From positions 537,080 through 601,079 of the forward strand of contig DASWYC010000002.1 of assembly GCA_036405175.1 (NCBI GenBank): a stretch of DNA of 64,000 nt, read 5' to 3'. The position numbers were made by a program, and so were the translations under genes. Origin of the DNA: Minisyncoccota bacterium (GTDB lineage: Bacteria > Patescibacteriota > Minisyncoccia > Phycocordibacterales > UBA1006). The notes under the pieces are model-generated. The model was not told the origin of the DNA, made no database searches, and was given only the letters and a program-made list of their open reading frames with translations. This document shows, piece by piece, positions 5,685 through 60,990 of the stretch. Within the stretch, counting starts at the first letter, position 1. Each line of letters opens with the position of its first letter.

Positions 5685-5809
5685 GGCTTATATGGTTTCT
5701 GAGTAGTCGCGCAGCGGCTGATAGGGAGCGCTATTGCGCAGCTTTGGCGCGACCATATCAGACCGTGAGCGTAGGCTCGGTAGAGGCCGCTACGAAGAAA
5801 CCATATAAG
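5685..5809. repeat. Structured repeat element copy A (long subtype), in the secY-adk spacer, inserted at the centre of palindrome gcttatatggtttct|agaaaccatataagc
   Basis: Shares conserved core with copies at 10043, 18383, 41624 and 45136: agtcgcgcagcggctgata…gcgcgaccatatcagacc.tgagcgtagg.tcggtagaggccgct. Flanked by a 15-bp perfect inverted repeat unique to this copy. Confidence 0.85.
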
Positions 5810-5874
5810 CTCATAATTCTAAATAATAACAAAAACCCCACTCTTTCGAGTAGGATTTTTTAGTTTCAATACAA

Positions 5875-7165: not shown

Positions 7166-7603
7166 TTATTCTGTAATGATACCAGAAGCGGCGATAATTG
7201 CATCCTTTGCTTTTTGAGAAACCTCAAGTCCTTCAAAGGTAAGCTTTTTGGTAAGGGTTCCAAAAGAAAGAACTTTTACCGGAAGGGTGCGAAGCTCTTT
7301 ATAGCTTACGAGTCCCTTTTCGTAGAGAGTTACCGGATTTACGGTTTCTCCTGCATCAAAGTTCTTATCAATTTTTGAAAGGTTAATACCAAGTGGCTTT
7401 ACGCGGATTGAGTTAAACTTGTATCCACGAAGCTTAGGCAAACGTTTAATGATATCACGCATTTCAGGACGCATACTTGCTCCTGCGCGTGCGGTTTGTC
7501 CTTTACCACCACGTCCCGAGGTTTTACCTCGCTTTCCTCCGCGTCCGATACGCTTAGAATCGGTTTGAGAGTTCTGTTGTGATCGAGTGAGTGTGTGCAA
7601 CAT
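7166..7603 (-). CDS. rplO: 50S ribosomal protein L15
   Basis: Gly/Arg-rich N-terminus (GRGGKRGKTSGRGGKGQ) typical of L15. Placed between rpsE and secY. Confidence 0.9.
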   Translation of the reverse strand: MLHTLTRSQQNSQTDSKRIGRGGKRGKTSGRGGKGQTARAGASMRPEMRDIIKRLPKLRGYKFNSIRVKPLGINLSKIDKNFDAGETVNPVTLYEKGLVSYKELRTLPVKVLSFGTLTKKLTFEGLEVSQKAKDAIIAASGIITE

Positions 7604-9834: not shown

Positions 9835-10042
9835 AATTATATATAAAGCGACCGCACCCCTACTGTGCGTAGTGGCGCATTAATTGATAACAGAGACGAT
9901 ATCTTCGTGATAATTGAGAACTATTCAAGTGTTTCTGCGTGAAATCTTGAGTGAGTTTTCATGTGCCACGGATCCTTCTCTAGGGAAAATACTAACAAAT
10001 TTAAGTGGTTTTGTCAAAAAGTTAGTCATGAGCCAACTTCTC

Positions 10043-10167
10043 AACCCTAGCCATGAGAGCAGTCGCGGAAACTGCCGATAGGGAGCGCTGTTGCGTAGCT
10101 TCGGCGCGACCATATCGGACAGTTGAGCGGAGGGCCGGTAGAGCCCGCTGCGATCATGGCCAGGGTT
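10043..10167. repeat. Structured repeat element copy B (long subtype, most diverged), between the rpsZ start and the divergent dsbA-like gene
   Basis: Core is homologous to copies A and E, with compensating changes (ccgata…tatcgg versus ctgata…tatcag). Flanked by near-perfect inverted repeat aaccctagccatga / tcatggccagggtt. Confidence 0.8.
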
Positions 10168-10193: not shown

Positions 10194-10922
10194 ATGAAAG
10201 CACATCATAAGGAAAATACGATTTATACCACCATTTTAATAATAGTCCTTGGAATTATCGCTGTTTTTGCAGTTTCAGCATCAAAAACCCTTGATAGTAT
10301 TAATACCCCCCGAATTGGTAATTGGAGCCTCCTACCGCAGGTTATCAATGTGCCACTTTCAAAGGTTGGCGTGCGCGAAAAAGACCTTGCTCCATGTCTT
10401 GATAATCCAGAAACTCAACAAATTATTGCTCGCGATGCTGAAGAGGCTGGCCCTACCGGAACACCTCTCTTCTATATTTTCTCAAAGGATCACACTTATC
10501 GTATGGTTGGAGCAATTCCTGCAGCCATGCTCACTCAAATGATTGACACCCTTCAAGCTGGTCGTCCTATTGCTACCCCAGCAGAAGCCGAAGGTAATTT
10601 TCAAGAAATTTCTGCCGATGCTCCAGAAATGGCATATCTCAATCTTCGCCCTACCGATGCGCGCTTAAATGCAACACTTACAAACCCATCAGTAACAATC
10701 ATTGAGTACGGCGATCTTTCATGCCCTGCATGTAAATATGCGCACCAAGAACTCAAAAAGGCTCTTTCAAAAGAAACTACTGTGCAGTATATATATCGCC
10801 ATCACCCACTTACCAGCATTCACCCTGACGCACAAAAGCAAGCAGAAGTTGCCGTATGTGTGCAGCAACTTAAAGGATACAAGGCATTCTGGGACTTTGT
10901 AGATTACACCTACAAACAATAA
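10194..10922 (+). CDS. Membrane-anchored DsbA-like thiol:disulfide oxidoreductase with apparently permuted motif order
   Basis: N-terminal TM helix. The C-terminal half has …VTIIEYGDLSCPACKYAH…HHPL…FWDFVDY (the DsbA CxxC N-subdomain). The N-terminal half has …CLDNPETQQI…GPTGTPLFYIF… (normally the C-terminal DsbA subdomain). Confidence 0.65.
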   Translation: MKAHHKENTIYTTILIIVLGIIAVFAVSASKTLDSINTPRIGNWSLLPQVINVPLSKVGVREKDLAPCLDNPETQQIIARDAEEAGPTGTPLFYIFSKDHTYRMVGAIPAAMLTQMIDTLQAGRPIATPAEAEGNFQEISADAPEMAYLNLRPTDARLNATLTNPSVTIIEYGDLSCPACKYAHQELKKALSKETTVQYIYRHHPLTSIHPDAQKQAEVAVCVQQLKGYKAFWDFVDYTYKQ

Positions 10923-10926
10923 TCAC

Positions 10927-10957
10927 TAAAAAATCCCTCACTAGTGAGGGATTTTTT
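10927..10957. terminator. Bidirectional rho-independent terminator aaaaaatccctc-actagt-gagggatttttt
   Basis: Perfect 12-bp stem flanked by A and T runs. Lies downstream of both the dsbA-like gene (+) and rplE (-). Confidence 0.75.
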
Positions 10958-10973
10958 AGTGTGTCTGCAAATA

Positions 10974-18350: not shown

Positions 18351-18382
18351 CCATCCCACAACTTGGTTAGCGAAACAGTGTT

Positions 18383-18499
18383 AACAAAAACCACTTTGTA
18401 GCAGTCGCGCAGACGGCTGATAATGAGCACGTTGTGCGAATATATCAGACCGCGAGCGTAGGGCCGATAGAGCCCGCTGCGTACAAAGTGGTTTTTGTT
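18383..18499. repeat. Structured repeat element copy C (short subtype), between convergent HIT and pgk genes, inserted at the centre of the 36-bp palindrome aacaaaaaccactttgta|tacaaagtggtttttgtt
   Basis: Conserved core gcagtcgcgcagacggctgataatgagcacgttgtgcgaatatatcagaccgcgagcgtagggccgatagagcccgctgcg. Flanked by a perfect 18-bp inverted repeat that resembles a split bidirectional terminator. Confidence 0.85.
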
Positions 18500-18515
18500 A
18501 TTTAAGAATGTTTCA

Positions 18516-22315: not shown

Positions 22316-22328
22316 TTTCCAGAACCAC

Positions 22329-22358
22329 AAAACCCCACATCAATTGATGTGGGGTTTT
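22329..22358. terminator. Bidirectional terminator aaaaccccacatcaattgatgtggggtttt
   Basis: Perfect 12-bp stem, flanked by A and T runs. Lies between ppa (+) and the Thr-rich ORF (-). Confidence 0.75.
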
Positions 22359-22438
22359 GCATATTTAGATGCTATAGAGAAAACCACCCTTTCGGGTGGT
22401 TTTCGATGTGCGATATATATGTGCGCGCACGAACGAGA

Positions 22439-22705: not shown

Positions 22706-22856
22706 ATTTGAACTTTAATCTAGTGTACAAAGAGAACCGATGTTCTTTTATAATTACACATCGACCGTGTACCATCCTAGTATACAATGCTTATTTACAA
22801 GGTCAATTTACTTTCCACATAACACCACACAATTATTACTCAATAAAGTCTTCATG

Positions 22857-22883
22857 TTGAGTCGCGCCTGCGGCGCGACTCAA
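22857..22883. other. GC-rich perfect hairpin ttgagtcgcgcc-tgc-ggcgcgactcaa in the tig upstream region
   Basis: 12-bp stem seen directly. Shares the gagtcgcgc / ggcgcgac motifs with the 5-copy repeat family. Confidence 0.5.
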
Positions 22884-22946
22884 CCATATCCCATCTTTAC
22901 ATTTATAGGTTTTATCGGTACACTTCCGTAACTAATAACTATATAT

Positions 22947-24032
22947 ATGTCTATGAAATTCACCTCATCAAAAGCCGACAGCGCTACCCCATCACGTGTT
23001 GTACTTACGGTATCTATTCCCTGGAACGAGCTTGAATCGCTTCGTCCAGCAGCAATTAAAACCCTTGGTGCTCAAGTGCAGATGGACGGATTCCGTGCAG
23101 GACATGTTCCAGAAGAGATGCTCCTCAAAAAAATCCCGGCTCATCATATTTTGGGCGAAATGGCTGACAGTGCAATTCAAGCAGTCTATATTGATCTCAT
23201 TAAAGAAAATAATATTACCCCGATTGGAAAGCCCGACATTAATCTTAAAAAACTCGCAGAAGGAAATGAATTTGAATTTACCGTTGAAACTGATGTTCTT
23301 CCAGAAATCACCCTTCCAAAAGACCTTGAAGCACAAGCAAAGAAGTTCTTGTCTCCAGAAATTAATGTTGAGGTTTCAGATGATGAGGTGACCCAGGCAC
23401 TCAAAGAAATCCAAACGATGCGCTATCAACGTGACGGCCACGATGTTCCTGAAGAACTTCCCGAGCTTGATGACGCATTTGCTCAAACCCTTGGAAAGTT
23501 TCAAACGTTGGCAGAAGTGCGCGAGGTAATCAAAGACAATATTGAACACGAAAAAATGCACCATGAAATTGATAAACGCCACGGAGAATTCTATGACGCA
23601 ATTGCAGATGCAGTAACCACAGATATGCCGCAAAGCATTGTTCAATTTGAAATCGACAAGCGCATTTCCCAGCTTGAATACGATGCTGCAATGGGAGGCT
23701 CAACGCTCGATGAGTATCTTGCATCTATTGAGAAGACCCGTGAGACATTACTTGAAGAAATGACTCCCGTTGCCACCAAGTCTGCAAAGCTCGAACTTAT
23801 CTTTAACGAAATCGCCAACCAGAATAACTTAATACCCGATGAAAAGATGATTGAAGAAGAAGTACAAGCGGCCACAACTCGCTATAAAGATTCAAAAGAT
23901 TTTGATGTTAACCGCGCTCGCGACTACTTCTATACCGTATACAAAAATCGCATGGTAGTGCACCACCTTGATGTTCTTGGAGGACTCCCTCACATTCATC
24001 ATGATGAACATGACCACCATCACCACGACTAA
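22947..24032 (+). CDS. tig: Trigger factor lacking the PPIase domain, with His-rich C-terminal tail
   Basis: N-domain …AQVQMDGFRAGHVPEEMLLKK… and C-domain pattern. No FKBP-type GDxVxIDF segment. Tail HIHHDEHDHHHHD. Canonical tig-clpP adjacency. Confidence 0.75.
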   Translation: MSMKFTSSKADSATPSRVVLTVSIPWNELESLRPAAIKTLGAQVQMDGFRAGHVPEEMLLKKIPAHHILGEMADSAIQAVYIDLIKENNITPIGKPDINLKKLAEGNEFEFTVETDVLPEITLPKDLEAQAKKFLSPEINVEVSDDEVTQALKEIQTMRYQRDGHDVPEELPELDDAFAQTLGKFQTLAEVREVIKDNIEHEKMHHEIDKRHGEFYDAIADAVTTDMPQSIVQFEIDKRISQLEYDAAMGGSTLDEYLASIEKTRETLLEEMTPVATKSAKLELIFNEIANQNNLIPDEKMIEEEVQAATTRYKDSKDFDVNRARDYFYTVYKNRMVVHHLDVLGGLPHIHHDEHDHHHHD

Positions 24033-32069: not shown

Positions 32070-32106
32070 TTGTACAAAAGCGCCTGACCGTACGGTCAGG
32101 CGCTTT
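32070..32106 (-). terminator. Terminator acaaaagcgcctgaccgtacggtcaggcgcttttgt
   Basis: 15-bp GC-rich stem flanked by A/T runs. Downstream of the methyltransferase gene. Confidence 0.7.
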
Positions 32107-32123
32107 TGTATCACGTGTACCAT

Positions 32124-32900: not shown

Positions 32901-33815
32901 TTACCGAGAGTGGAATTTTTTATGAATATCCATCAAATGTTTATCCGTAACGTGCGTATAAATTTGTGTTGTTCCAATATGCGCATGACCAAGCATCGCC
33001 TGTACACTTCTAAGATCCGCACCGTTCTCTAATAAGTTGGTTGCAAATGAATGTCTAAATACGTGCGGTGTTACGCGCTTTGAAATTCCTGCCTTCACGG
33101 CATAAAATGCAACGAGTCGCTCGATAGAACGTGGAGTTAATCGTCCTTCAATGGTTTTATTAAGTGTTCTATGTGAAACGTCTCTAAATAAGGGCTCGGC
33201 CATATCTTTGCGAGCTTTCAAATAGTTTTGAATCGCAGTACGCGCTTCATCAGACACAAATACCACTCTAATTTTTTCTCCTTTTCCTCTGATTGAAAAT
33301 TCTGAACGAGATAAATCCAAATCTCTGTTTAATGAACATAATTCTGAAACACGAAGGCCGGTAGAGTAGAGAAGTTCCAAAAGCGCACGATCACGTAACC
33401 CCTTTTCTTCTGAAAGATCTGGCGCATCCAAGATACGGGTTAATTCTTGAAAGGTAAGAAAATCAATATCACGCTCACCAACCTTAGCTAATTCAATCAT
33501 TTCAGGGCGCGCGGCAGAAATACCACGTTTCATAAGAAATTTGAGCAGCATTCTCAAGGCAATTAAATAGTAGTTTTGGGTCTTTTTCTTCATCGTATCC
33601 TGTGTTTGACCCTTTCTTGAAGCACCTTTTTTACGATTTAAAATCCCACGGAATGCACGAATCGATTCCTCGGTAATATCTTTGGTATTTTTAATATTCA
33701 TCGTAGCAATATATTCACGCAAATAGCGTTCATAGTTTTCAAGAGTTTTCAGGCTGCGACCCTTTTCGATCTCCAAATATTCAAGAAAACTGCGCAAAGC
33801 TTGATTAATATCCAT
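32901..33815 (-). CDS. Tyrosine site-specific recombinase XerC/XerD family
   Basis: C-terminal catalytic box …HVFRHSFATNLLENGADLRSVQAMLGHAHIGTTQIYTHV. 304 aa. Confidence 0.85.
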   Translation of the reverse strand: MDINQALRSFLEYLEIEKGRSLKTLENYERYLREYIATMNIKNTKDITEESIRAFRGILNRKKGASRKGQTQDTMKKKTQNYYLIALRMLLKFLMKRGISAARPEMIELAKVGERDIDFLTFQELTRILDAPDLSEEKGLRDRALLELLYSTGLRVSELCSLNRDLDLSRSEFSIRGKGEKIRVVFVSDEARTAIQNYLKARKDMAEPLFRDVSHRTLNKTIEGRLTPRSIERLVAFYAVKAGISKRVTPHVFRHSFATNLLENGADLRSVQAMLGHAHIGTTQIYTHVTDKHLMDIHKKFHSR

Positions 33816-41549: not shown

Positions 41550-41554
41550 ATTTA

Positions 41555-41582
41555 TTAAAGCTCCACATATGTGGAGCTTTAA
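41555..41582 (+). terminator. Terminator ttaaagctccacatatgtggagctttaa after pnp
   Basis: 11-bp stem. Confidence 0.7.
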
Positions 41583-41623
41583 TTTTCTAAACAGATTATT
41601 GCAAGTGCTTTTAAGGTCTTCTC

Positions 41624-41734
41624 AAATCTCTATCATCAAGCAGTCGCGCAGCGGCTGATAATGAGCACATGGTGCGAATATATCAGACCGCGAGCGTAGG
41701 CCCGGTAGAGGCCGCTGCGCGATGATAGAGATTT
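41624..41734. repeat. Structured repeat element copy D (short subtype), downstream of the pnp terminator, at the centre of palindrome aaatctctatcatc|gatgatagagattt
   Basis: Core cagtcgcgcagcggctgataatgagcacatggtgcgaatatatcagaccgcgagcgtaggcccggtagaggccgctgcgc. Inner 10-bp stem gcgcagcggc/gccgctgcgc. Outer stem 14 bp. Confidence 0.85.
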
Positions 41735-45078: not shown

Positions 45079-45103
45079 CGTGAGTAATTTTTGATTAAAA
45101 AAT

Positions 45104-45130
45104 ATAGCCAGAATTATTCTGGCTTTTTAT
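45104..45130 (+). terminator. Terminator atagccagaattattctggctttttat after comM-like gene
   Basis: Stem agccagaat/attctggct plus T-run. Confidence 0.7.
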
Positions 45131-45135
45131 ATTCC

Positions 45136-45254
45136 AAACACTTCTTGTGGAGCAGTCGCGCAGTGGCTGATACGAGCGCCATTGCGTAGCTTTGGCGCGA
45201 CCATATCAGACCACGAGCGTAGGGTCGTAGCCCGCTGCGACACAAGAAGTGTTT
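45136..45254. repeat. Structured repeat element copy E (long subtype), between convergent comM-like and M23 peptidase genes, at the centre of palindrome aaacacttcttgtg|cacaagaagtgttt
   Basis: Core gagcagtcgcgcagtggctgatacgagcgccattgcgtagctttggcgcgaccatatcagaccacgagcgtagggtcgtagcccgctgcga. Outer stem is a perfect 14-bp inverted repeat. Confidence 0.85.
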
Positions 45255-45255
45255 A

Positions 45256-55864: not shown

Positions 55865-56971
55865 CTATGCTTGCATTGGCATGATTAAGTAGGTGAAATC
55901 TGGAGTATCTTTACCTCTAATGGTAAGCGGCTTCTTAGGAGAAATAGTAAATATCAACACATCGCTGTGGATTTTTGAAATTCCTTCAATTAAATACTGT
56001 TCATTTAAGGCGAAGGTGTATTCTTCACCTTCAAGTGCACCTTTAATAACTCCTTCTATTGAACCTTTTTCATCATTTTCTGTTTTCACCACCATTCCAA
56101 CTTCACTATTGAGCGAAACAGTAAGCTTGCGCACTGAATTTGAAACCACGGAAGACAATTTAAGAATATCTTCAACATCGCTTTTTAGGCAGGTAACCTT
56201 TGAGACTGTTTCTTGAGGAATAATACGCTGATAATCAGGGAACGCTCCATCAATATGACGCACCATAAGCGTAGTTTTTGGTAGTGAAACACGTAACAAG
56301 TGCTCAGACACACCACATTCGCAGCTTTCTTCTGGTGTAAAATTGCTTAAAATCTTAACCATATCCACCACGTTCTTAATAGGGATTAAAATTTTTGGAA
56401 ATCCTTGTGGAACGTTAATTTTCTTTTTAAGCTCTGCAAGACGAAATGAATCTGTTGCTACAGAAACTAATGTTTCATCAGTTTCATTTCTCCATAAACA
56501 TACTGCAGCAATTTCAGGTTTAATATCCGATGAAGATGCAGCAAACTCCACCATCTTAAGCAGCTCACTAAATTGACCAACAGGAAGCGAAAAGGTGAAA
56601 GTGTCACTTGGTAATGGAGTTGATGGAAATTCTTCTGATGAGACAATTTTGAGCGTCACAGATACATCAGGAGATATAACTTTCATTATTCCTTTTTGAA
56701 CATCAAGAGTAATAGTAGATTGTTTTGAAATTTTACTAATAAGTGCCGTAAGAAGCCCACCATCAACACATACTGATCCGGAAACTTCTACTTTTGCAGG
56801 CAATGCAACTTCAAGGGCGCAATTAAGATTGTTTGCGCGAATTGTACATCCGTCTTCATTGCATTCAATAAGATAGTTTGTAAGTAGTGGTGTCAAACTT
56901 TGCTTAATTGAAATTCCTGAGAGGATTCTCAAACTTCGTTCAAGGTCTTCCTGGGTAAAACTGGCTTTCAT
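55865..56971 (-). CDS. dnaN: DNA polymerase III beta sliding clamp
   Basis: 368 aa, three-domain length. Immediately downstream of dnaA. N-terminal MKASFTQEDL…L pattern typical of beta-clamp. Confidence 0.85.
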   Translation of the reverse strand: MKASFTQEDLERSLRILSGISIKQSLTPLLTNYLIECNEDGCTIRANNLNCALEVALPAKVEVSGSVCVDGGLLTALISKISKQSTITLDVQKGIMKVISPDVSVTLKIVSSEEFPSTPLPSDTFTFSLPVGQFSELLKMVEFAASSSDIKPEIAAVCLWRNETDETLVSVATDSFRLAELKKKINVPQGFPKILIPIKNVVDMVKILSNFTPEESCECGVSEHLLRVSLPKTTLMVRHIDGAFPDYQRIIPQETVSKVTCLKSDVEDILKLSSVVSNSVRKLTVSLNSEVGMVVKTENDEKGSIEGVIKGALEGEEYTFALNEQYLIEGISKIHSDVLIFTISPKKPLTIRGKDTPDFTYLIMPMQA

Positions 56972-57295
56972 AGTTGTATATTACTGCTTTTTAAAAATAA
57001 ATAAAAGTAATAGCAATAGATAACAGTAAGGTTTGTGGATTTTGTGAATAACTCGAAAAGTGCCTTAAATTTAAGGAAGTTTGATGACTTTTGACTGGGG
57101 AAATGCAAGGAATAACTCGGGGAATTATTATAGGAAAACATGGGGAGAATATGTGAATAGTATACCCGTGGGGGAAAACCGAACGTTATCCTGGGGTTAT
57201 TGATAGGTTATCCTGAAGGAAATCCACGCATAATCCCCAGTTATTTGGGGAAACTGGGGATGAGACACTTGAATAAGTGTATATGAATATATGTA
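56972..57295. promoter_or_regulatory. dnaA–dnaN intergenic region with DnaA-box-like sites and ≥7 iterated TGGGGA(A) motifs: candidate oriC module
   Basis: tgtggattt, atccacgc, ttatcctgg, ttatcctga. G4 tracts at ~57097, 57118, 57142, 57170, 57193, 57247, 57256 on one strand plus one inverted copy (taatcccca). Confidence 0.55.
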
Positions 57296-58681
57296 TTACC
57301 GAGTAGCTAGGTGTCCACGAATGGTTTCAAGGTCGTGAATCATTTGCGCATCATTTTGAGAAAGATCTTTTACTTTTTCTACCGAGTGGATTACGGTTGT
57401 GTGATCACGTCCTCCAAATTCCTTACCAATATTAGGGAATGAAATATTATAGTCCTCGCGAAGAATATACATTGCTACTTGGCGCACATGCACTACTTCT
57501 TTCCTGCGCGTTTTATCAAAGAGTTCTTCTGGTGATTGATTGAAGTAGTTGGCAACAATCTTTACAATATCTTCAATTGAAACTGATTTATGGGCTTTTT
57601 GGCTGTTTTTAAGAAGATTTCCCACAAATGCTGGCGTTACTACTTCTGGCCGGGTCTTCATGGTGGTAATCACTAAATTACACATTCCTTCAAGTTCACG
57701 AATATTTCCCTCCAATGCTTCAGCAATAGCAGAAATAATCTCTTCTGGAAGCACTACGCCTTCTTTTTCAGCCTTTCGTTTAATGATTACATAGCGAGAT
57801 TCATAATCCGGAAGACTTACATCAACCGTCATTCCTTGTTGGAATCGTGATGTCATGCGAGATTCAAATCCCTGCAAGAGTGATGGGTGCTTATCTGATG
57901 AGAAAATAATTTGTTTTCCTTCGTTGTGAAGTTCGTTAAAGATATTAAAGAGAATTTCCTGCACTTTTTCTTTTCCTCCCACAAACTGAATATCATCAAC
58001 AATAAAAACATCATATTTTGTATAGCGATTTTTAAGATTGTTAATACTATTAGTGATGTTTGGATTCACAAATGAATTAATGATATCAGTGATAAATTTA
58101 TCAGAACTTGTATAAAACACTGATAATTCAGGATGTTTTTCACGAAATGCATTTCCAGTTGCCTGAATAAGATGCGTTTTTCCAATCCCGGTAGGTCCAA
58201 AAATAAAGAGCGGATTGTATTTTCCTGGTTCATTTACCGTTGCAACAGCAGTGTGATATGCAATTTCATTAAACGTACCTAAAATATAGTTATCAAAGGT
58301 GTAGCGTGTATTGAGATTGCTGAGTTTGTTTACATACAGGTCAGAAATAGGTAATTCATTGCCAAGTTGTTGATGAATAGGTTTCTTTTCTGATTTTGGT
58401 TTGTCAGTAATGGGGTTTTTGCGTGAAACGGTAAATTCAATAGCACGAATTGAGTCATTAATTTCTCGTAAAATGCGGAGCAAGGTTTTTTGGAATTTAG
58501 TAGCAAGCCATTCTTTTACAAATTCATTCGGTGTTCCAAGATAAACGGTACCCTCATGATCAACTGAATCAATAAACGTTCCTTTAAACCATGTTTGAAA
58601 TGCTGCTGGTGAAATTTCTGTTTGGAGTTTCGTCAATGATTCTTCCCATAATGATTGTGTATCAAGTGATGAAATTTCCAT
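57296..58681 (-). CDS. dnaA: Chromosomal replication initiator DnaA
   Basis: AAA+ Walker A GPTGIGKTHL; Walker B …VFIVDDIQF…; C-terminal DNA-binding domain …LIGKEFGGRDHTTVIHS…. Confidence 0.9.
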   Translation of the reverse strand: MEISSLDTQSLWEESLTKLQTEISPAAFQTWFKGTFIDSVDHEGTVYLGTPNEFVKEWLATKFQKTLLRILREINDSIRAIEFTVSRKNPITDKPKSEKKPIHQQLGNELPISDLYVNKLSNLNTRYTFDNYILGTFNEIAYHTAVATVNEPGKYNPLFIFGPTGIGKTHLIQATGNAFREKHPELSVFYTSSDKFITDIINSFVNPNITNSINNLKNRYTKYDVFIVDDIQFVGGKEKVQEILFNIFNELHNEGKQIIFSSDKHPSLLQGFESRMTSRFQQGMTVDVSLPDYESRYVIIKRKAEKEGVVLPEEIISAIAEALEGNIRELEGMCNLVITTMKTRPEVVTPAFVGNLLKNSQKAHKSVSIEDIVKIVANYFNQSPEELFDKTRRKEVVHVRQVAMYILREDYNISFPNIGKEFGGRDHTTVIHSVEKVKDLSQNDAQMIHDLETIRGHLATR

Positions 58682-58896
58682 AGTTGAATACTATTATACG
58701 TGGATACAATTTTGTGCAAAACCAACAACCATACTACAGGTTATCCACAAAAAGTTGTAAAGACTGTGGAGAAATAGGAAAATAAGGGGAAAGACCTGTG
58801 GATTAGTGTGGATAACTTTGGGGATTAGATGTTGAATAGATGAAGGTCCTAAAAACTCTTGCAAAATAGGCCGAACTTTGATAGTATTTCTGTACT
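58682..58896. promoter_or_regulatory. dnaA upstream / rpmH upstream region with DnaA-box cluster (2 perfect + 3 imperfect) and candidate rpmH promoter TTGCAA-N17-TAGTAT
   Basis: ttatccaca at 58741-58749 and tgtggataa at 58807-58815 are perfect. cgtggatac, ctgtggaga and tgtggatta are imperfect. -35/-10-like hexamers at 58859-58887. Confidence 0.6.
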
Positions 58897-59031
58897 ATGT
58901 CAATTACGTATCACCCACGAAAAAAGAAAAGAAAGACTACTCACGGATTCTTGGTACGCATGAAAACCGCGAATGGACGTTCTGTAATCCGTCGCCGTCG
59001 TGCCCAAGGACGAAAATCATTGAGCGTGTAA
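58897..59031 (+). CDS. rpmH: 50S ribosomal protein L34
   Basis: [44 protein letters not shown] is canonical L34 (44 aa). Missed by the longest-ORF track because an overlapping frame was reported instead. Confidence 0.9.
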
Positions 59032-59048
59032 TACGCTATAGTAGGCAT

Positions 59049-59396
59049 ATGATACCTAAATCATGCCGACTCAGTTATCAAGACATTTTGATAGTAAAAA
59101 AACAGGGTATTAGAACACGGATTTCGTGGATTTTAGTGCAGTCTATGCCTGTGCCGCAAGGTAATTCAGCTAAATTAGGAGTGGTAGTAAGTAAGAAAAT
59201 TGCATCAAGCTCAGTAGCTCGTCACCGGATAAAACGTATTTTATTGGATGAACTTTTTTCTACGGCTCTTACAACAAATAAATATATATTAGTGAGTATT
59301 CAACAACTTCCTGAGGGTGTGGGAAGTTTAAGAACAGTTGCGGAGCGGCGTGTTTTTAGAGAGGAAATTGGAAGAATCGCTGAAAAGCTTATATAA
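59049..59396 (+). CDS. rnpA: Ribonuclease P protein component
   Basis: 115-aa basic protein directly after rpmH, …LGVVVSKKIASSSVARHRIKRILLD…. Confidence 0.85.
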   Translation: MIPKSCRLSYQDILIVKKQGIRTRISWILVQSMPVPQGNSAKLGVVVSKKIASSSVARHRIKRILLDELFSTALTTNKYILVSIQQLPEGVGSLRTVAERRVFREEIGRIAEKLI

Positions 59397-59399
59397 AGT

Positions 59400-59606
59400 A
59401 TGGGAGTTCTTAAATCAACTTATAAATTTATTCGTATTATTACCCAAACAGATTATGTGGGGGAATGCCGCTTTCACCCTACCTGTAGTGAATATTGTGC
59501 TGAATGCTACAAAAAATATGATCCATTTAAGGCTACAGTAAAGTCTGCGTGGCGATTATTACGATGTAATCCATGGAATAAATCATATGGAGTTGATGTG
59601 CCGTAA
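59400..59606 (+). CDS. yidD: Membrane protein insertion efficiency factor YidD
   Basis: …CRFHPTCSEYCAECYKKYDP… has the conserved Cys pattern. 68 aa. Confidence 0.85.
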   Translation: MGVLKSTYKFIRIITQTDYVGECRFHPTCSEYCAECYKKYDPFKATVKSAWRLLRCNPWNKSYGVDVP

Positions 59607-59617
59607 TGTAGATTAAT

Positions 59618-59655
59618 AAAAACAGCCCGATCAGCGAAGCTGATCGGGCTGTTTT
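59618..59655 (+). terminator. Palindromic terminator aaaacagcccgatcagc-gaag-gctgatcgggctgtttt
   Basis: 16-bp perfect stem with GATC-containing core ccgatcagc/gctgatcgg. Core recurs at 60948-60990 in inverted orientation. Confidence 0.7.
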
Positions 59656-59727
59656 ACTGTAAATTTAGACCACAGATAAATATAACGATTACTTGGTAAA
59701 AACGGAATTTCGTTTATACTAGAATCC

Positions 59728-60459
59728 ATGTTTAAGACAATTTTTGTTGCACCGCTTTATAACGCCTTTATTTTTATTACCTCACATGTAGGAAATTCTG
59801 CAATTCTTGGGCTTATTATTATCACTTTGATAATCAAACTTATTTTGCTCTACTTTACCTACAAAACCACCATCTCTCAGTGGTATCAAAAACTCCTTGA
59901 GCCAGAAGTTGAAGCTATTAAAAAGAATGTTCTAGATACAATTGAACAAAATAAACAAGTTTTTGCACTGTATGGGCGCTACAATATTAATCCATTTTCA
60001 GGATGTCTCCCTATTTTGATTCAATTACCAATCATTATTGCGCTTTATCAGATTTTTTATCGAGGAATTGATGCCTATAAAGAACTTTTATATGTGCCAT
60101 TTGATTTAACTACGATTTCATACACAATCGCTGGGCTTGATTTCTCTCATTCGGTACCACTGTTTGCAATTCTTGCTGGAGTTGTGCAATTCTTGTATGG
60201 ATATTTGAGTCAAAAGCGCCTTGATACTATTCAGAAAAAAGTAAACCAAGGAATTGTTAAAGAAGTAAATCCAGAAAATCCTCTTGATATGTCGAATATT
60301 CTTAAGAAGCAAATGCTCTATTTGGCACCAGCGATGATTATTGGATTTGGATTGTATTTGCCAGGGGCAGTAGCAATCTATTGGATTATTTCTACTGGAT
60401 TTAGTATGCTACAAGAAGCAGTGATGTGGCGCCGCTGGAAGCGTAAACATCTCGCCTAA
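59728..60459 (+). CDS. yidC: Membrane protein insertase YidC (short form)
   Basis: 5-TM 60-kDa-inner-membrane-protein core (…PFSGCLPILIQLPIIIALYQ…), 243 aa. Position after yidD. Confidence 0.85.
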   Translation: MFKTIFVAPLYNAFIFITSHVGNSAILGLIIITLIIKLILLYFTYKTTISQWYQKLLEPEVEAIKKNVLDTIEQNKQVFALYGRYNINPFSGCLPILIQLPIIIALYQIFYRGIDAYKELLYVPFDLTTISYTIAGLDFSHSVPLFAILAGVVQFLYGYLSQKRLDTIQKKVNQGIVKEVNPENPLDMSNILKKQMLYLAPAMIIGFGLYLPGAVAIYWIISTGFSMLQEAVMWRRWKRKHLA

Positions 60460-60463
60460 TGGT

Positions 60464-60934
60464 ATGAATACTGAACACCACAAAGAAATTGCTCAAAAAA
60501 TACTCGCATATTGTGGTGAAGAAGTACTTGCGGTAGAAACAACCATACGAAGCGATCTTGGGGTAACCTTAATTAATTTCCGCCTCACCGACGGTAAGAA
60601 ATTCATCTATAATCAAGGTGAAGCATTGCGTGCGTTCAATACGGTTATTCGCTCAATTGTTGAAAAAAATGTTGGAACACTTAAAGAGACTGCGTGGCTG
60701 ATAGATATTAATAATTTTTATTTTCATTATATTGAGGATATTCAGCAAGGAACACGGCACATTATTGAAAAAGTAAAAAAGACCGGAAAACCTCATGACC
60801 TGCCACCTCAAAATCCGTTTGATCGACGTATTGTGCATCATACGGTGCAGAGTGATGGTCACGTAATTTCCACCTCAGAAGGAGAAGGGTTTGAACGACA
60901 CATTGTTATTTCTTTGAAGGAAAGCGGTGAATAA
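60464..60934 (+). CDS. Jag/KhpB-like R3H-domain RNA-binding protein
   Basis: C-terminal R3H region …FDRRIVHHTVQSDGHVISTSEGEGFERHIVI… Conserved position after yidC. Confidence 0.75.
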   Translation: MNTEHHKEIAQKILAYCGEEVLAVETTIRSDLGVTLINFRLTDGKKFIYNQGEALRAFNTVIRSIVEKNVGTLKETAWLIDINNFYFHYIEDIQQGTRHIIEKVKKTGKPHDLPPQNPFDRRIVHHTVQSDGHVISTSEGEGFERHIVISLKESGE

Positions 60935-60947
60935 AAAAGTGGGAGGA

Positions 60948-60990
60948 TTGATAAGAGTCCGATCAGCTTCGCTGATCGGACTCTTATCAA
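60948..60990 (+). terminator. Palindromic terminator ttgataagagtccgatcagc-ttcg-gctgatcggactcttatcaa
   Basis: 19-bp perfect stem. Same core as 59618-59655 with different outer stem. Confidence 0.7.

What the first reader, a model, noticed from the sequence alone, without database searches (positions are those of the whole stretch)
18383..18499. Each repeat copy sits exactly at the symmetry centre of a different perfect palindrome (split terminator-like hairpins)
Removing each conserved core joins two arms that form a perfect or near-perfect palindrome unique to that locus:
- A: gcttatatggtttct | agaaaccatataagc
- B: aaccctagccatga | tcatggccagggtt (one mismatch)
- C: aacaaaaaccactttgta | tacaaagtggtttttgtt
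- D: aaatctctatcatc | gatgatagagattt
- E: aaacacttcttgtg | cacaagaagtgttt

The arms share no sequence between copies. Several carry A-run/T-run flanks like bidirectional rho-independent terminators, and copies C and E lie between convergent genes. Direct target-site duplications would give direct repeats, not inverted ones. This pattern is instead what is expected if:
- (a) an element integrates precisely at palindrome centres or hairpin loops, as IS1397/ISKpn1 do into palindromic units, IS110-family into REP, and class C group II introns into terminator stems; or
- (b) a mechanism extends palindromes outward from a conserved core.

Either way the inserts sit in places with consequences for transcription. 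Copy A splits secY from adk-map, copy B sits between rpsZ and rplE, and copy D follows the pnp terminator.
Basis: partly seen in the sequence, partly recalled or inferred. Interest (0 to 1): 0.7.

Follow-up and report, generated by a model that had tools for sequence, protein, structure and literature searches.

The report
Structured repeat capping unique hairpin palindromes

Summary
The window (a Candidatus Paceibacterota MAG) holds exactly five copies of an 81-97-nt GC-rich core. All lie on the + strand, and each is bracketed by locus-specific inverted arms of 14-19 nt (four perfect, one with a single mismatch).

- **The core:** it is a strand-specifically folded three-way junction, with 96.8% of cells paired and 15 of 32 pairs compensatory across nine copies. 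It matches no Rfam family above threshold.
- **The arms:** they are not part of the element. They look like the genome's own hairpins: the window has 25 native perfect hairpins with stems of 10-20 bp, mostly A-run/T-run bidirectional terminators.
- **A sister lineage (~87% nt identity):**
  - Sites A-D are all occupied.
  - Core subtypes are shuffled between sites.
  - The core is inverted at site C, and also at the rearranged, arm-less site B.
  - Arm changes are mirrored, so the arms stay perfect at C and nearly so at A and D. Native terminators there evolve the same way.
- **A more distant relative:** no copies in about 53 kb.

Best reading: a dispersed structured element living at hairpin apices. 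Replication template switching keeps the arms symmetrical, and the cores are exchanged between sites. Targeted insertion versus post-insertion arm growth is unresolved, because no alignable empty site was found. No transposase was found in the window.

The parts
5686..5700 (+). Copy A left arm GCTTATATGGTTTCT
   Evidence: Perfect complement of 5796-5810
5701..5795 (+). Copy A core (long type, GA...GA junctions included)
   Evidence: CM R1 109.6 bits; folds as a three-way junction
5796..5810 (+). Copy A right arm AGAAACCATATAAGC
10043..10056 (+). Copy B left arm AACCCTAGCCATGA
   Evidence: Complement of 10154-10167 with one mismatch
10057..10153 (+). Copy B core (long 'B-type', GGAAACTGCCGATA...)
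   Evidence: CM R1 106.6 bits
10154..10167 (+). Copy B right arm TCATGGCCAGGGTT
18382..18400 (+). Copy C left arm TAACAAAAACCACTTTGTA (A-run + stem, terminator-like)
   Evidence: 19-bp perfect complement of 18482-18500; I saw no other hairpin in the HIT-pgk gap
18401..18481 (+). Copy C core (short type)
   Evidence: CM R1 83.9 bits; fold
18482..18500 (+). Copy C right arm TACAAAGTGGTTTTTGTTA (stem + T-run)
41624..41637 (+). Copy D left arm AAATCTCTATCATC
   Evidence: 14-bp perfect complement of 41721-41734; orthologous arm in L129 differs at one base
41638..41720 (+). Copy D core (short type; junctions AA...GC)
   Evidence: CM R1 88 bits; the L129 ortholog has a long-type core in the same arms
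41721..41734 (+). Copy D right arm GATGATAGAGATTT
45136..45149 (+). Copy E left arm AAACACTTCTTGTG
   Evidence: 14-bp perfect complement of 45241-45254
45150..45240 (+). Copy E core (long type, 3-nt shorter P4 loop)
   Evidence: CM R1 91.4 bits
45241..45254 (+). Copy E right arm CACAAGAAGTGTTT
41554..41583 (.). Native zero-loop perfect palindrome (pnp terminator) just upstream of copy D. It is an example of the native hairpin class that the arms resemble.
   Evidence: the ortholog in L129 is diverged but still almost perfectly symmetrical

Best explanation
The repeat is a small (81-97 nt), non-coding, GC-rich element that folds on one strand into a compact three-way junction with its 5' and 3' ends paired (GCAGU/GCUGC, usually flanked by tandem G.A). 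It resides at the apex of hairpin-forming, AT-rich palindromes that belong to the host locus, not to the element.

**Most likely history (inferred)**
- The element enters, by copy-paste or exchange, at the dyad centre or apical loop of palindromes of the same class as this genome's native bidirectional terminators.
- This position is tolerated because the element's own fold brings the two arms back together, so the host hairpin still forms.

**Shown here**
- The arms are locus-specific and are inherited with the locus.
- Cores are shuffled between loci (gene conversion or re-insertion) and can flip orientation.
- The arms stay perfectly complementary while diverging between lineages, exactly as native terminators do. 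This is the known signature of replication template switching between inverted repeats.

**Not shown**
- The mobilising activity is unknown and is not encoded recognisably in the window.
- Whether the functional single strand is DNA or RNA is undecided. Several copies lie where the sense strand is unlikely to be transcribed, which favours DNA.
For: - **Copies and arms:** five copies, each with unique arms of 14-19 bp.
- **Core structure:** 96.8% of cells paired, 15/32 pairs with double changes, 0/500 shuffles as good, and slid controls at 23-40% paired. All 26 G.U cells lie on the same strand.
- **Whole-unit fold:** arms plus core fold as one extended hairpin, z = -7 to -9, and the sense strand is more stable.
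- **Native hairpins:** 25 perfect hairpins (stem 10-20 bp, loop 0-12) in 64 kb. Four are zero-loop palindromes of 15-19 bp. Most have A-run/T-run ends like arms C, D and E.
- **Site D:** the sister lineage keeps the same arms (13/14) and flank but has a long-type core where the window has a short-type core.
- **Core identity matrix:** non-orthologous pairs are the closest (W_B-L_A 93.6%, W_C-W_D 93.8%), against orthologous pairs at 80-86%.
- **Site C:** the core is inverted in the sister lineage. The arms are at the same position, differ at several positions, and are still 15/15 perfect.
- **Native terminators** at orthologous positions are likewise diverged, and the clearest ones (rplE|dsbA, pnp) keep long symmetrical stems.
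- **Distribution:** absent from about 53 kb of a more distant relative.
- **Literature:** template switching homogenises arms, expands them and inverts spacers (PMC8604942 read; PMC13100816 and PMC8794818 abstracts).
Against: - No orthologous empty site with an intact palindrome was found. Every site comparable between the two element-bearing lineages is filled in both.
- In the element-free relative the secY-adk spacer is 80 nt with one unrelated hairpin, and the yifB-M23 spacer is 10 nt. The arms are therefore not demonstrably older than the core.
- Copies A, D and E sit beside a separate canonical terminator, and B lies between divergent genes, so the 'target' would have to be an extra hairpin.
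- At site A the arm sequences differ between lineages and their alignment is ambiguous.
- One sister-lineage copy (L127 7000-7094) has no arms.
- No candidate integrase or transposase was found.
- The family was found in only two closely related lineages (n = 9 copies).
Confidence: 0.42

Rival explanations
1. Arms are made after insertion. The core lands anywhere in intergenic DNA by some unrelated route. Because it is a strong hairpin nucleus, replication template switching (quasipalindrome 'correction') then copies one flank, reverse-complemented, onto the other side, growing a perfect palindrome outward.
For: - Mirrored arm divergence and core (spacer) inversion between lineages.
- In L127 site A the GA/GA junction has been converted to a paired TC/GA, so the palindrome has grown inward.
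- A second hairpin pair (59619-59655 and 60948-60990) shares an identical inner stem with inverted loops (gaa/ttc) and unique outer arms.
- The element-free relative lacks arm-like palindromes at sites A and E.
- Copies A, D and E lie beside, not in, the canonical terminator.
- The mechanism is documented.
Against: - It does not explain how the core disperses.
- The tandem GA/GA mismatch between core and arms persists in five of nine copies, although fold-back priming would be expected to erase it.
- Arms C, D and E carry the outer A-run/T-run signature of native bidirectional terminators, and C is the only terminator candidate for two convergent genes.
- Arm boundaries are abrupt, with no graded quasi-palindrome except at B.
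Confidence: 0.3
2. The unit (arms plus core) is a functional host RNA module. Examples would be a structured cap on terminator or 3'-end hairpins that stabilises transcripts, or a protein- or RNase-binding site. Only pairing of the closing stem matters, so the arms drift freely.
For: - Strong covariation with conserved unpaired bases and strand-specific G.U pairs.
- Retained at four orthologous sites across about 13% genome divergence.
- C sits in 3' UTRs of convergent genes, and after inversion in the sister lineage it is still sense to one of them.
Against: - The sense strand is antisense to the ribosomal-protein operon at A and to M23 at E.
- A and D lie between a terminator and what I read by eye as the next gene's -10 box, where little transcription is expected.
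- Orientation flips between lineages.
- Arms of near-identical cores (W_C/W_D, 93.8%) are unrelated, so cores move independently of arms.
- Template switching alone can maintain stems without selection (PMC8794818).
- No Rfam match.
Confidence: 0.15
3. It is an ordinary MITE or IS-derived element with terminal inverted repeats and target-site duplications, or a REP/REPIN mobilised by a RAYT.
For: It is small, non-coding, multi-copy and intergenic. The 5' end G(C/T)AG is reminiscent of REP GTAG heads (a resemblance from memory only).
Against: - The only shared terminal complementarity is 4-5 nt.
- The flanking repeats are inverted, unique to each locus, and 14-19 nt long.
- There are no direct duplications.
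- No transposase or Y1 gene was found in the window.
Confidence: 0.03

Closest known systems
Palindrome/REP-targeting insertion sequences (IS1397 and ISKpn1 of the IS3 family; IS621, ISPpu9 and ISPpu10 of the IS110 family)
   Same: These are mobile DNAs found specifically inside hairpin-forming extragenic palindromes (PMC1525189; PMC12288879).
   Different: - They are autonomous kilobase ISs with a transposase.
- They target one conserved repeated sequence (REP/PU).
- Here the element is under 100 nt and non-coding, and each host palindrome has a different sequence. Recognition, if any, would have to be of structure or symmetry.
Template-switch (quasipalindrome) mutation of inverted repeats
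   Same: It produces arm homogenisation, arm expansion and spacer inversion (PMC8604942; PMC13100816 and PMC8794818). This matches the mirrored arm changes and the inverted core at site C.
   Different: It is a mutational process, not an element. Documented spacers are a few bases, whereas here the 'spacer' is a conserved 81-97-nt structured repeat present at many loci.
Bacterial small structured repeats / MITEs (ERIC, RUP, BOX, Correia, RPE; reviewed in PMC3184786 and PMC2229807)
   Same: They are short, non-coding, multi-copy, intergenic, strongly folded, and co-transcribed with neighbours.
   Different: Those have conserved termini (TIRs) and usually short direct target duplications. None is described as sitting at the centre of locus-specific palindromes.
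Class C group II introns
   Same: They use terminator stem-loops as landmarks for insertion, avoiding harm to genes (from my own knowledge, not tested here).
   Different: They are 600 nt or longer, are ribozymes with an RT, and insert downstream of the hairpin, not at its apex. No intron features are present here.
Insertion hotspot at the centre of the human Xq27.1 palindrome
   Same: Foreign DNA is repeatedly inserted at the centre of a palindrome (PMC9233990, abstract). Replication- or breakage-based repair as the cause is from my own knowledge.
   Different: It is eukaryotic, involves one locus, and the inserts are large and unrelated rather than a repeat family.

Membership tests
MITE (non-autonomous DDE-transposon derivative) | Terminal inverted repeats conserved among copies | tested here: not met
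   Only GCAG/CTGC (4-5 nt) is shared. The 14-19-nt inverted flanks differ at every locus.
MITE (non-autonomous DDE-transposon derivative) | Direct target-site duplication | tested here: not met
   Flanks are inverted, not direct.
MITE (non-autonomous DDE-transposon derivative) | Cognate autonomous IS with the same ends | tested here: inconclusive
   None in the 64-kb window or about 110 kb of relatives (Pfam; gene tables).
REP / REPIN with RAYT | 20-40-nt imperfect palindrome with a conserved sequence, in high copy number, plus a RAYT (Y1) gene | tested here: not met
   The conserved part is an 81-97-nt three-way junction, not a simple REP hairpin. No Y1_Tnp hit was found among window ORFs.
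IS200/IS605-derived PATE | No TIR or TSD; subterminal hairpins; strand-specific | tested here: met
   No TIR or TSD. There are two internal hairpins and strand-specific G.T pairs. All five window copies are on one strand of one replichore.
IS200/IS605-derived PATE | Insertion 3' of a fixed tetra- or pentanucleotide; TnpA present | tested here: not met
   The 5' flanks (TTTCT, CATGA, TTGTA, CATC, TGTG) share no motif. No TnpA was found in the window.
Intrinsic (bidirectional) terminator - applies to the arms only | Stem flanked by an upstream A-run and a downstream T-run at gene 3' ends | tested here: inconclusive
   - Met for C (AACAAAAACC...GGTTTTTGTT between convergent genes).
- Weakly met for D and E (AAA...TTT).
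- Not met for A and B.
- Termination itself was not measured.
Any Rfam 15 RNA family | Score at or above the gathering threshold | tested here: not met
   No hit at gathering. The only hits at E<=10 are RF03015 Transposase-2 at 12.3 bits against 42.7 (E = 3.2), with its structure not matched, and RF01128 sR43 at 10.1 bits against 45 (E = 2.2).
Group IIC intron | Ribozyme domains I-VI, >600 nt, inserted after a terminator hairpin | tested here: not met
   The size is 81-97 nt, the location is at the hairpin centre, and there is no Rfam intron hit.
Inverted repeat shaped by template switching | Arm homogenisation with mirrored multi-nucleotide changes, and spacer inversion between relatives | tested here: met
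   At site C the arms are diverged but perfect in both lineages and the core is inverted. Native hairpins behave alike. Loops gaa/ttc are inverted in the 59.6-kb and 60.9-kb hairpin pair.

The most novel reading that the evidence does not exclude
A new class of non-autonomous mobile element whose integration is directed by DNA structure or dyad symmetry (the apex or centre of any hairpin-forming palindrome) rather than by sequence. It would be mobilised in trans by an unidentified enzyme, or by breakage and repair at palindrome centres. Its compact fold would preserve the host hairpin, for example a terminator.
Probability: 0.3. Interest if true: 0.8.

Novelty: new variant of a known kind. Interest (0 to 1): 0.55.

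Why it matters
- **If insertion is structure-directed:** this would be a sequence-independent, hairpin-apex targeting mode not described for bacterial repeats. It would also be a natural example of a 'safe-harbour' strategy in an extremely compact (~0.67 Mb) CPR genome.
- **If the arms are grown by template switching:** the family is a clean natural reporter of that process, because identical cores with different arms at many loci let arm birth, homogenisation and spacer inversion be dated.
- **Practical point:** the element breaks short-read assemblies of these organisms. Contigs L137 and L138 end inside it.

Tried and rejected
- **Genome-contig scan:** the pattern had only 17 specified bases and returned 120 chance loci. 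A CM search of L001-L100 gave nothing below E = 0.49, and a regex check of all 120 loci was also negative.
- **Other collection scans:** two metagenome scans and one viral scan with 24-25-base patterns gave 0 hits. BLASTN against plasmids and phages gave no match.
- **Rfam:** nothing at gathering. The weak Transposase-2 hit (12.3 bits, E = 3.2) is rejected as chance, because its helices are not matched.
- **Hammerhead reading of CUGAUA...GA:** rejected by eye, because GAA is not conserved in long-type copies.
- **Arms as part of the element:** rejected. W_C and W_D cores are 93.8% identical with unrelated arms, while W_D and L_D share arms but not core type.
- **Pfam on 30 window ORFs:** no transposase, RT or HUH protein. 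The only recombinase is a Xer-like tyrosine recombinase (32901-33815), which is also present in the element-free relative.
- **Right-edge protein look-up:** failed.
- **L137 and L138:** they looked like empty secY-adk sites from the gene table (70-nt gap), but are contigs truncated inside the element.
- **Orientation bias:** 5/5 in the window is not significant alone (p about 0.06), and two of four sister-lineage copies are inverted.

Full report
**Observation**

At 18382-18500 the + strand reads TAACAAAAACCACTTTGTA | GCAGTCGCG...CCGCTGCG | TACAAAGTGGTTTTTGTTA. Repeat finding and pattern searches give four more copies of the GC-rich core, at about 5.7, 10.1, 41.6 and 45.2 kb. A covariance model built from the copies and run with filters off finds exactly five full-length copies, all on the + strand, and no fragments.

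A script that extends complementarity outward from each core gives perfect arms of 15 (A), 19 (C), 14 (D) and 14 (E) bp, and 14 bp with one mismatch for B. The arms are unrelated between copies. Between arm and core there are usually two bases on each side (5'-GA...GA-3' in A, B and E). These can form tandem G.A pairs. D has AA...GC and C has only a 3' G.

**Organism and context**

SecY and PGK are identical to proteins that NCBI names as from a 'MAG TPA: Candidatus Paceibacterota bacterium', and the longest contig on record for those proteins is 667,975 bp. The window contains dnaN, dnaA, rnpA, yidC and jag at 55.9-60.9 kb, and the cumulative GC-skew minimum lies at about 56-58 kb. The origin is therefore in the window, and all five copies lie on one replichore with their sense strand on the C-rich strand.

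Gene context from Pfam:
- A lies between secY and adk. Both are on the minus strand, so the core is antisense to the operon.
- B lies between rpsZ (minus) and a divergent DsbA-like gene that interrupts the rplE-rpsZ interval.
- C lies between convergent HIT and pgk.
- D lies after pnp.
- E lies between convergent yifB-like and M23/LysM genes.

A, D and E each have a separate canonical terminator hairpin right beside them (about 5831-5862, 41554-41583 and 45106-45128). Only at C are the arms the sole terminator candidate, as read from the sequence.

**The core**

Nine distinct copies (five from the window, four from a sister lineage) align over 99 columns. The structure I specified has three parts:
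- a closing helix GCAGU/GCUGC;
- a long bulged hairpin containing an internal tandem G.A motif;
- a 4-bp hairpin with a 7-nt loop.

For this structure 96.8% of cells are paired, and 15 of 32 pairs carry changes on both sides. None of 500 shuffles matches it, and slid controls fall to 23-40% paired. All 26 wobble cells are G.U on the strand written GCAGTCGCG..., so one strand is the folded one.

Two size classes differ by 10-12 nt at the tip of the long hairpin. With their arms, the units fold into one extended hairpin as RNA or DNA (z = -5 to -9), and the sense strand is more stable (A: -74.3 versus -55.7 kcal/mol as RNA).

Rfam 15 has no match at gathering. The only sub-threshold hits are RF03015 at 12.3 bits (E = 3.2), whose helices are not reproduced, and RF01128 at 10.1 bits (E = 2.2).

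**The arms resemble native hairpins**

A census of the window finds 25 perfect hairpins with stems of 10-20 bp and loops of 0-12 nt. Most have an outer A-run and T-run, typical of bidirectional terminators in this AT-rich genome. Four are zero-loop perfect palindromes of 15-19 bp: 10924-10961, 22328-22359, 32073-32110 and 41554-41583. In length, composition and perfection, the arms of the five copies are indistinguishable from these.

**Comparative evidence**

Three groups of related sequence were retrieved through SecY, YifB and PGK homologues.

- *Same strain.* Independent Logan assemblies carry identical copies A and B.
- *Sister lineage 'L'.* This comprises ENA ERZ27336854/56 and Logan SRR18156190/93, at 80-95% nucleotide identity.
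- *More distant relative.* This is ENA scaffold_113 / GCA_043771175.1, with SecY 83%, YifB 67% and PGK 54% identity.

The model finds no copy in about 53 kb of the distant relative. There, the secY-adk spacer is 80 nt with one intact hairpin, AAAACAAAAAACACC-TAAAT-GGTGTTTTTTGTTT. The yifB-M23 spacer is 10 nt, and the other sites are rearranged.

In lineage L, sites A, B, C and D are all occupied:

| Site | What L shows |
|---|---|
| D | The arms are the same (AAATCTCTAGCATC / GATGATAGAGATTT, one new mismatch) and the right flank is nearly identical. The core is long-type, where the window has short-type. |
| A | L carries a B-type core (93.6% identical to window B, 80.4% to window A). The arms are different, and the GA/GA junction has become fully paired. 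|
| C | The core is orthologous in type but inverted. The arms sit at the same position between HIT and pgk. They differ from the window's at several positions and are still 15/15 complementary. |
| B | The site is rearranged: left arm, a 7-nt core stub, 130 nt of other sequence, then an inverted full core without arms. |

The identity matrix shows that the closest core pairs are mostly non-orthologous. Cores therefore move or are converted independently of the arms, and the arms belong to the locus.

Native terminators at orthologous positions in the two lineages are also strongly diverged. The clearest cases keep long symmetrical stems in both. For example, after rplE the window has TCACTAAAAAATCCCTCACT|AGTGAGGG... 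and L has ACACAATAAAACCACCG-tttc-CGGTGG.... The pnp terminator behaves the same way. Rapid, mirrored evolution of perfect palindromes is thus a genome-wide property, not something peculiar to the element.

**Mechanism**

The mirrored arm changes, arm perfection and inversion of the intervening segment are what replication template switching between inverted repeats produces (PMC8604942, read; PMC13100816 and PMC8794818). I regard this part as well supported by inference.

What remains open is how the core comes to be at the centre.

- *Hypothesis (a), confidence 0.42.* The core enters pre-existing hairpins at their dyad centre. In favour:
  - native targets are abundant;
  - arms C, D and E carry a terminator-like signature;
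  - C is the only terminator candidate for its two genes;
  - different core types occupy the same arms at D.
- *Hypothesis (b), confidence 0.30.* The arms are grown afterwards by template switching from a strongly folding nucleus. In favour:
  - arm-like palindromes are absent in the element-free relative;
  - A, D and E sit beside, rather than in, the canonical terminator;
  - B lies between divergent genes;
  - a second hairpin pair (59619-59655 and 60948-60990) shares an identical inner stem, has inverted loops and has unique outer arms.
- *A functional RNA module, confidence 0.15.* This is weakened by the copies whose sense strand is unlikely to be transcribed and by orientation flips.
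- *A classical MITE or REP.* This is excluded by the arm sequences.

No transposase, RT or HUH protein is recognisable among the 30 window ORFs I scanned. The single Xer-like recombinase is shared with the element-free relative.

**Comparison with known systems**

The closest known behaviours are:
- IS elements that insert into REP/PU palindromes (PMC1525189). Those are autonomous and target one conserved sequence.
- Small structured repeats and MITEs, which have conserved ends and direct duplications.
- Group IIC introns, which insert after terminators.
- Template-switch mutation itself.

None combines a conserved sub-100-nt structured core with unique, perfectly symmetrical host arms. My literature searches found no description of such a family, in CPR bacteria or elsewhere. 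Pattern scans of JGI metagenomes and IMG/VR found no further members, and BLAST of plasmids and phages found none either. The family appears narrow in distribution.

**Verdict**

This is a real, reproducible and unusual arrangement: a new variant of the small structured-repeat theme. Template switching is shown to act on these arms, while targeted insertion is plausible but unproven. Interest is moderate to high (0.55). It is limited by the small sample (nine copies, two lineages) and by the lack of an empty-site allele or a mobilising enzyme.

Noticed in passing
window 59619-59655 and 60948-60990: Two hairpins flank yidC-jag. They share an identical inner 9-bp stem (CCGATCAGC/GCTGATCGG), their 3-nt loops are reverse complements (gaa versus ttc), and their outer arms are different. 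This is a second 'conserved centre, unique arms' case and a textbook spacer inversion (2 matches versus 0 of 100 shuffles).
   Followed up: partly
window 22856-22884; L134 ortholog: A GC-rich hairpin, GTTGAGTCGCGCC-tgc-GGCGCGACTCAAC, lies upstream of the ORF at 22947-24032 (likely trigger factor, judged from the gene table of the orthologous locus L134). It is conserved in the sister lineage with two mirrored changes. It shares the strings AGTCGCGC and GGCGCGAC with the element core. It could be a collapsed derivative or an unrelated regulatory hairpin.
   Followed up: partly
window 55865-60934: The chromosomal origin region (dnaN, dnaA on the minus strand; rnpA, yidC, jag on the plus strand) lies inside the window. 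The cumulative GC-skew minimum is at about 56-58 kb.
   Followed up: partly
window 10194-10922 (+): A DsbA-like thioredoxin-fold gene is inserted on the opposite strand inside the ribosomal-protein operon, between rplE and rpsZ. It is conserved in both relatives. A TTGACA-type promoter for rpsZ is conserved at about 10010-10017 (minus strand).
   Followed up: partly
window 10924-10961, 22328-22359, 32073-32110, 41554-41583: These are zero-spacer perfect palindromes of 15-19 bp per arm, used as terminators. They are unusually long and perfect for intrinsic terminators, and they diverge quickly between lineages while keeping long symmetrical stems.
   Followed up: partly
L122 about 7213-7240 and L133 about 7195-7222: The element-free relative has its own short repeat, GGATCCCGTTAT(A/T)CAACGGGATGACG (a CCCGTT/AACGGG hairpin), at two unrelated intergenic sites.
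   Followed up: no
L127 6866-6999: At site B of the sister lineage, a 7-nt stub of the core (TCGCAGC) abuts the left arm. It is followed by about 130 nt of unrelated sequence and then an inverted, arm-less full core. This is the footprint of an imprecise rearrangement.
   Followed up: partly
L137 (ends 1 and 4375), L138 (end 2294): Short-read contigs of the sister lineage begin or end inside the element, which shows that it acts as an assembly-breaking repeat there.
   Followed up: yes
L129 7509-7985 and 11497-13964 versus window 41550-41623 and 45079-45255: The two lineages differ in gene content next to copies D and E. The sister lineage has an extra GNAT acetyltransferase gene after pnp and four extra genes between yifB and M23.
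   Followed up: no
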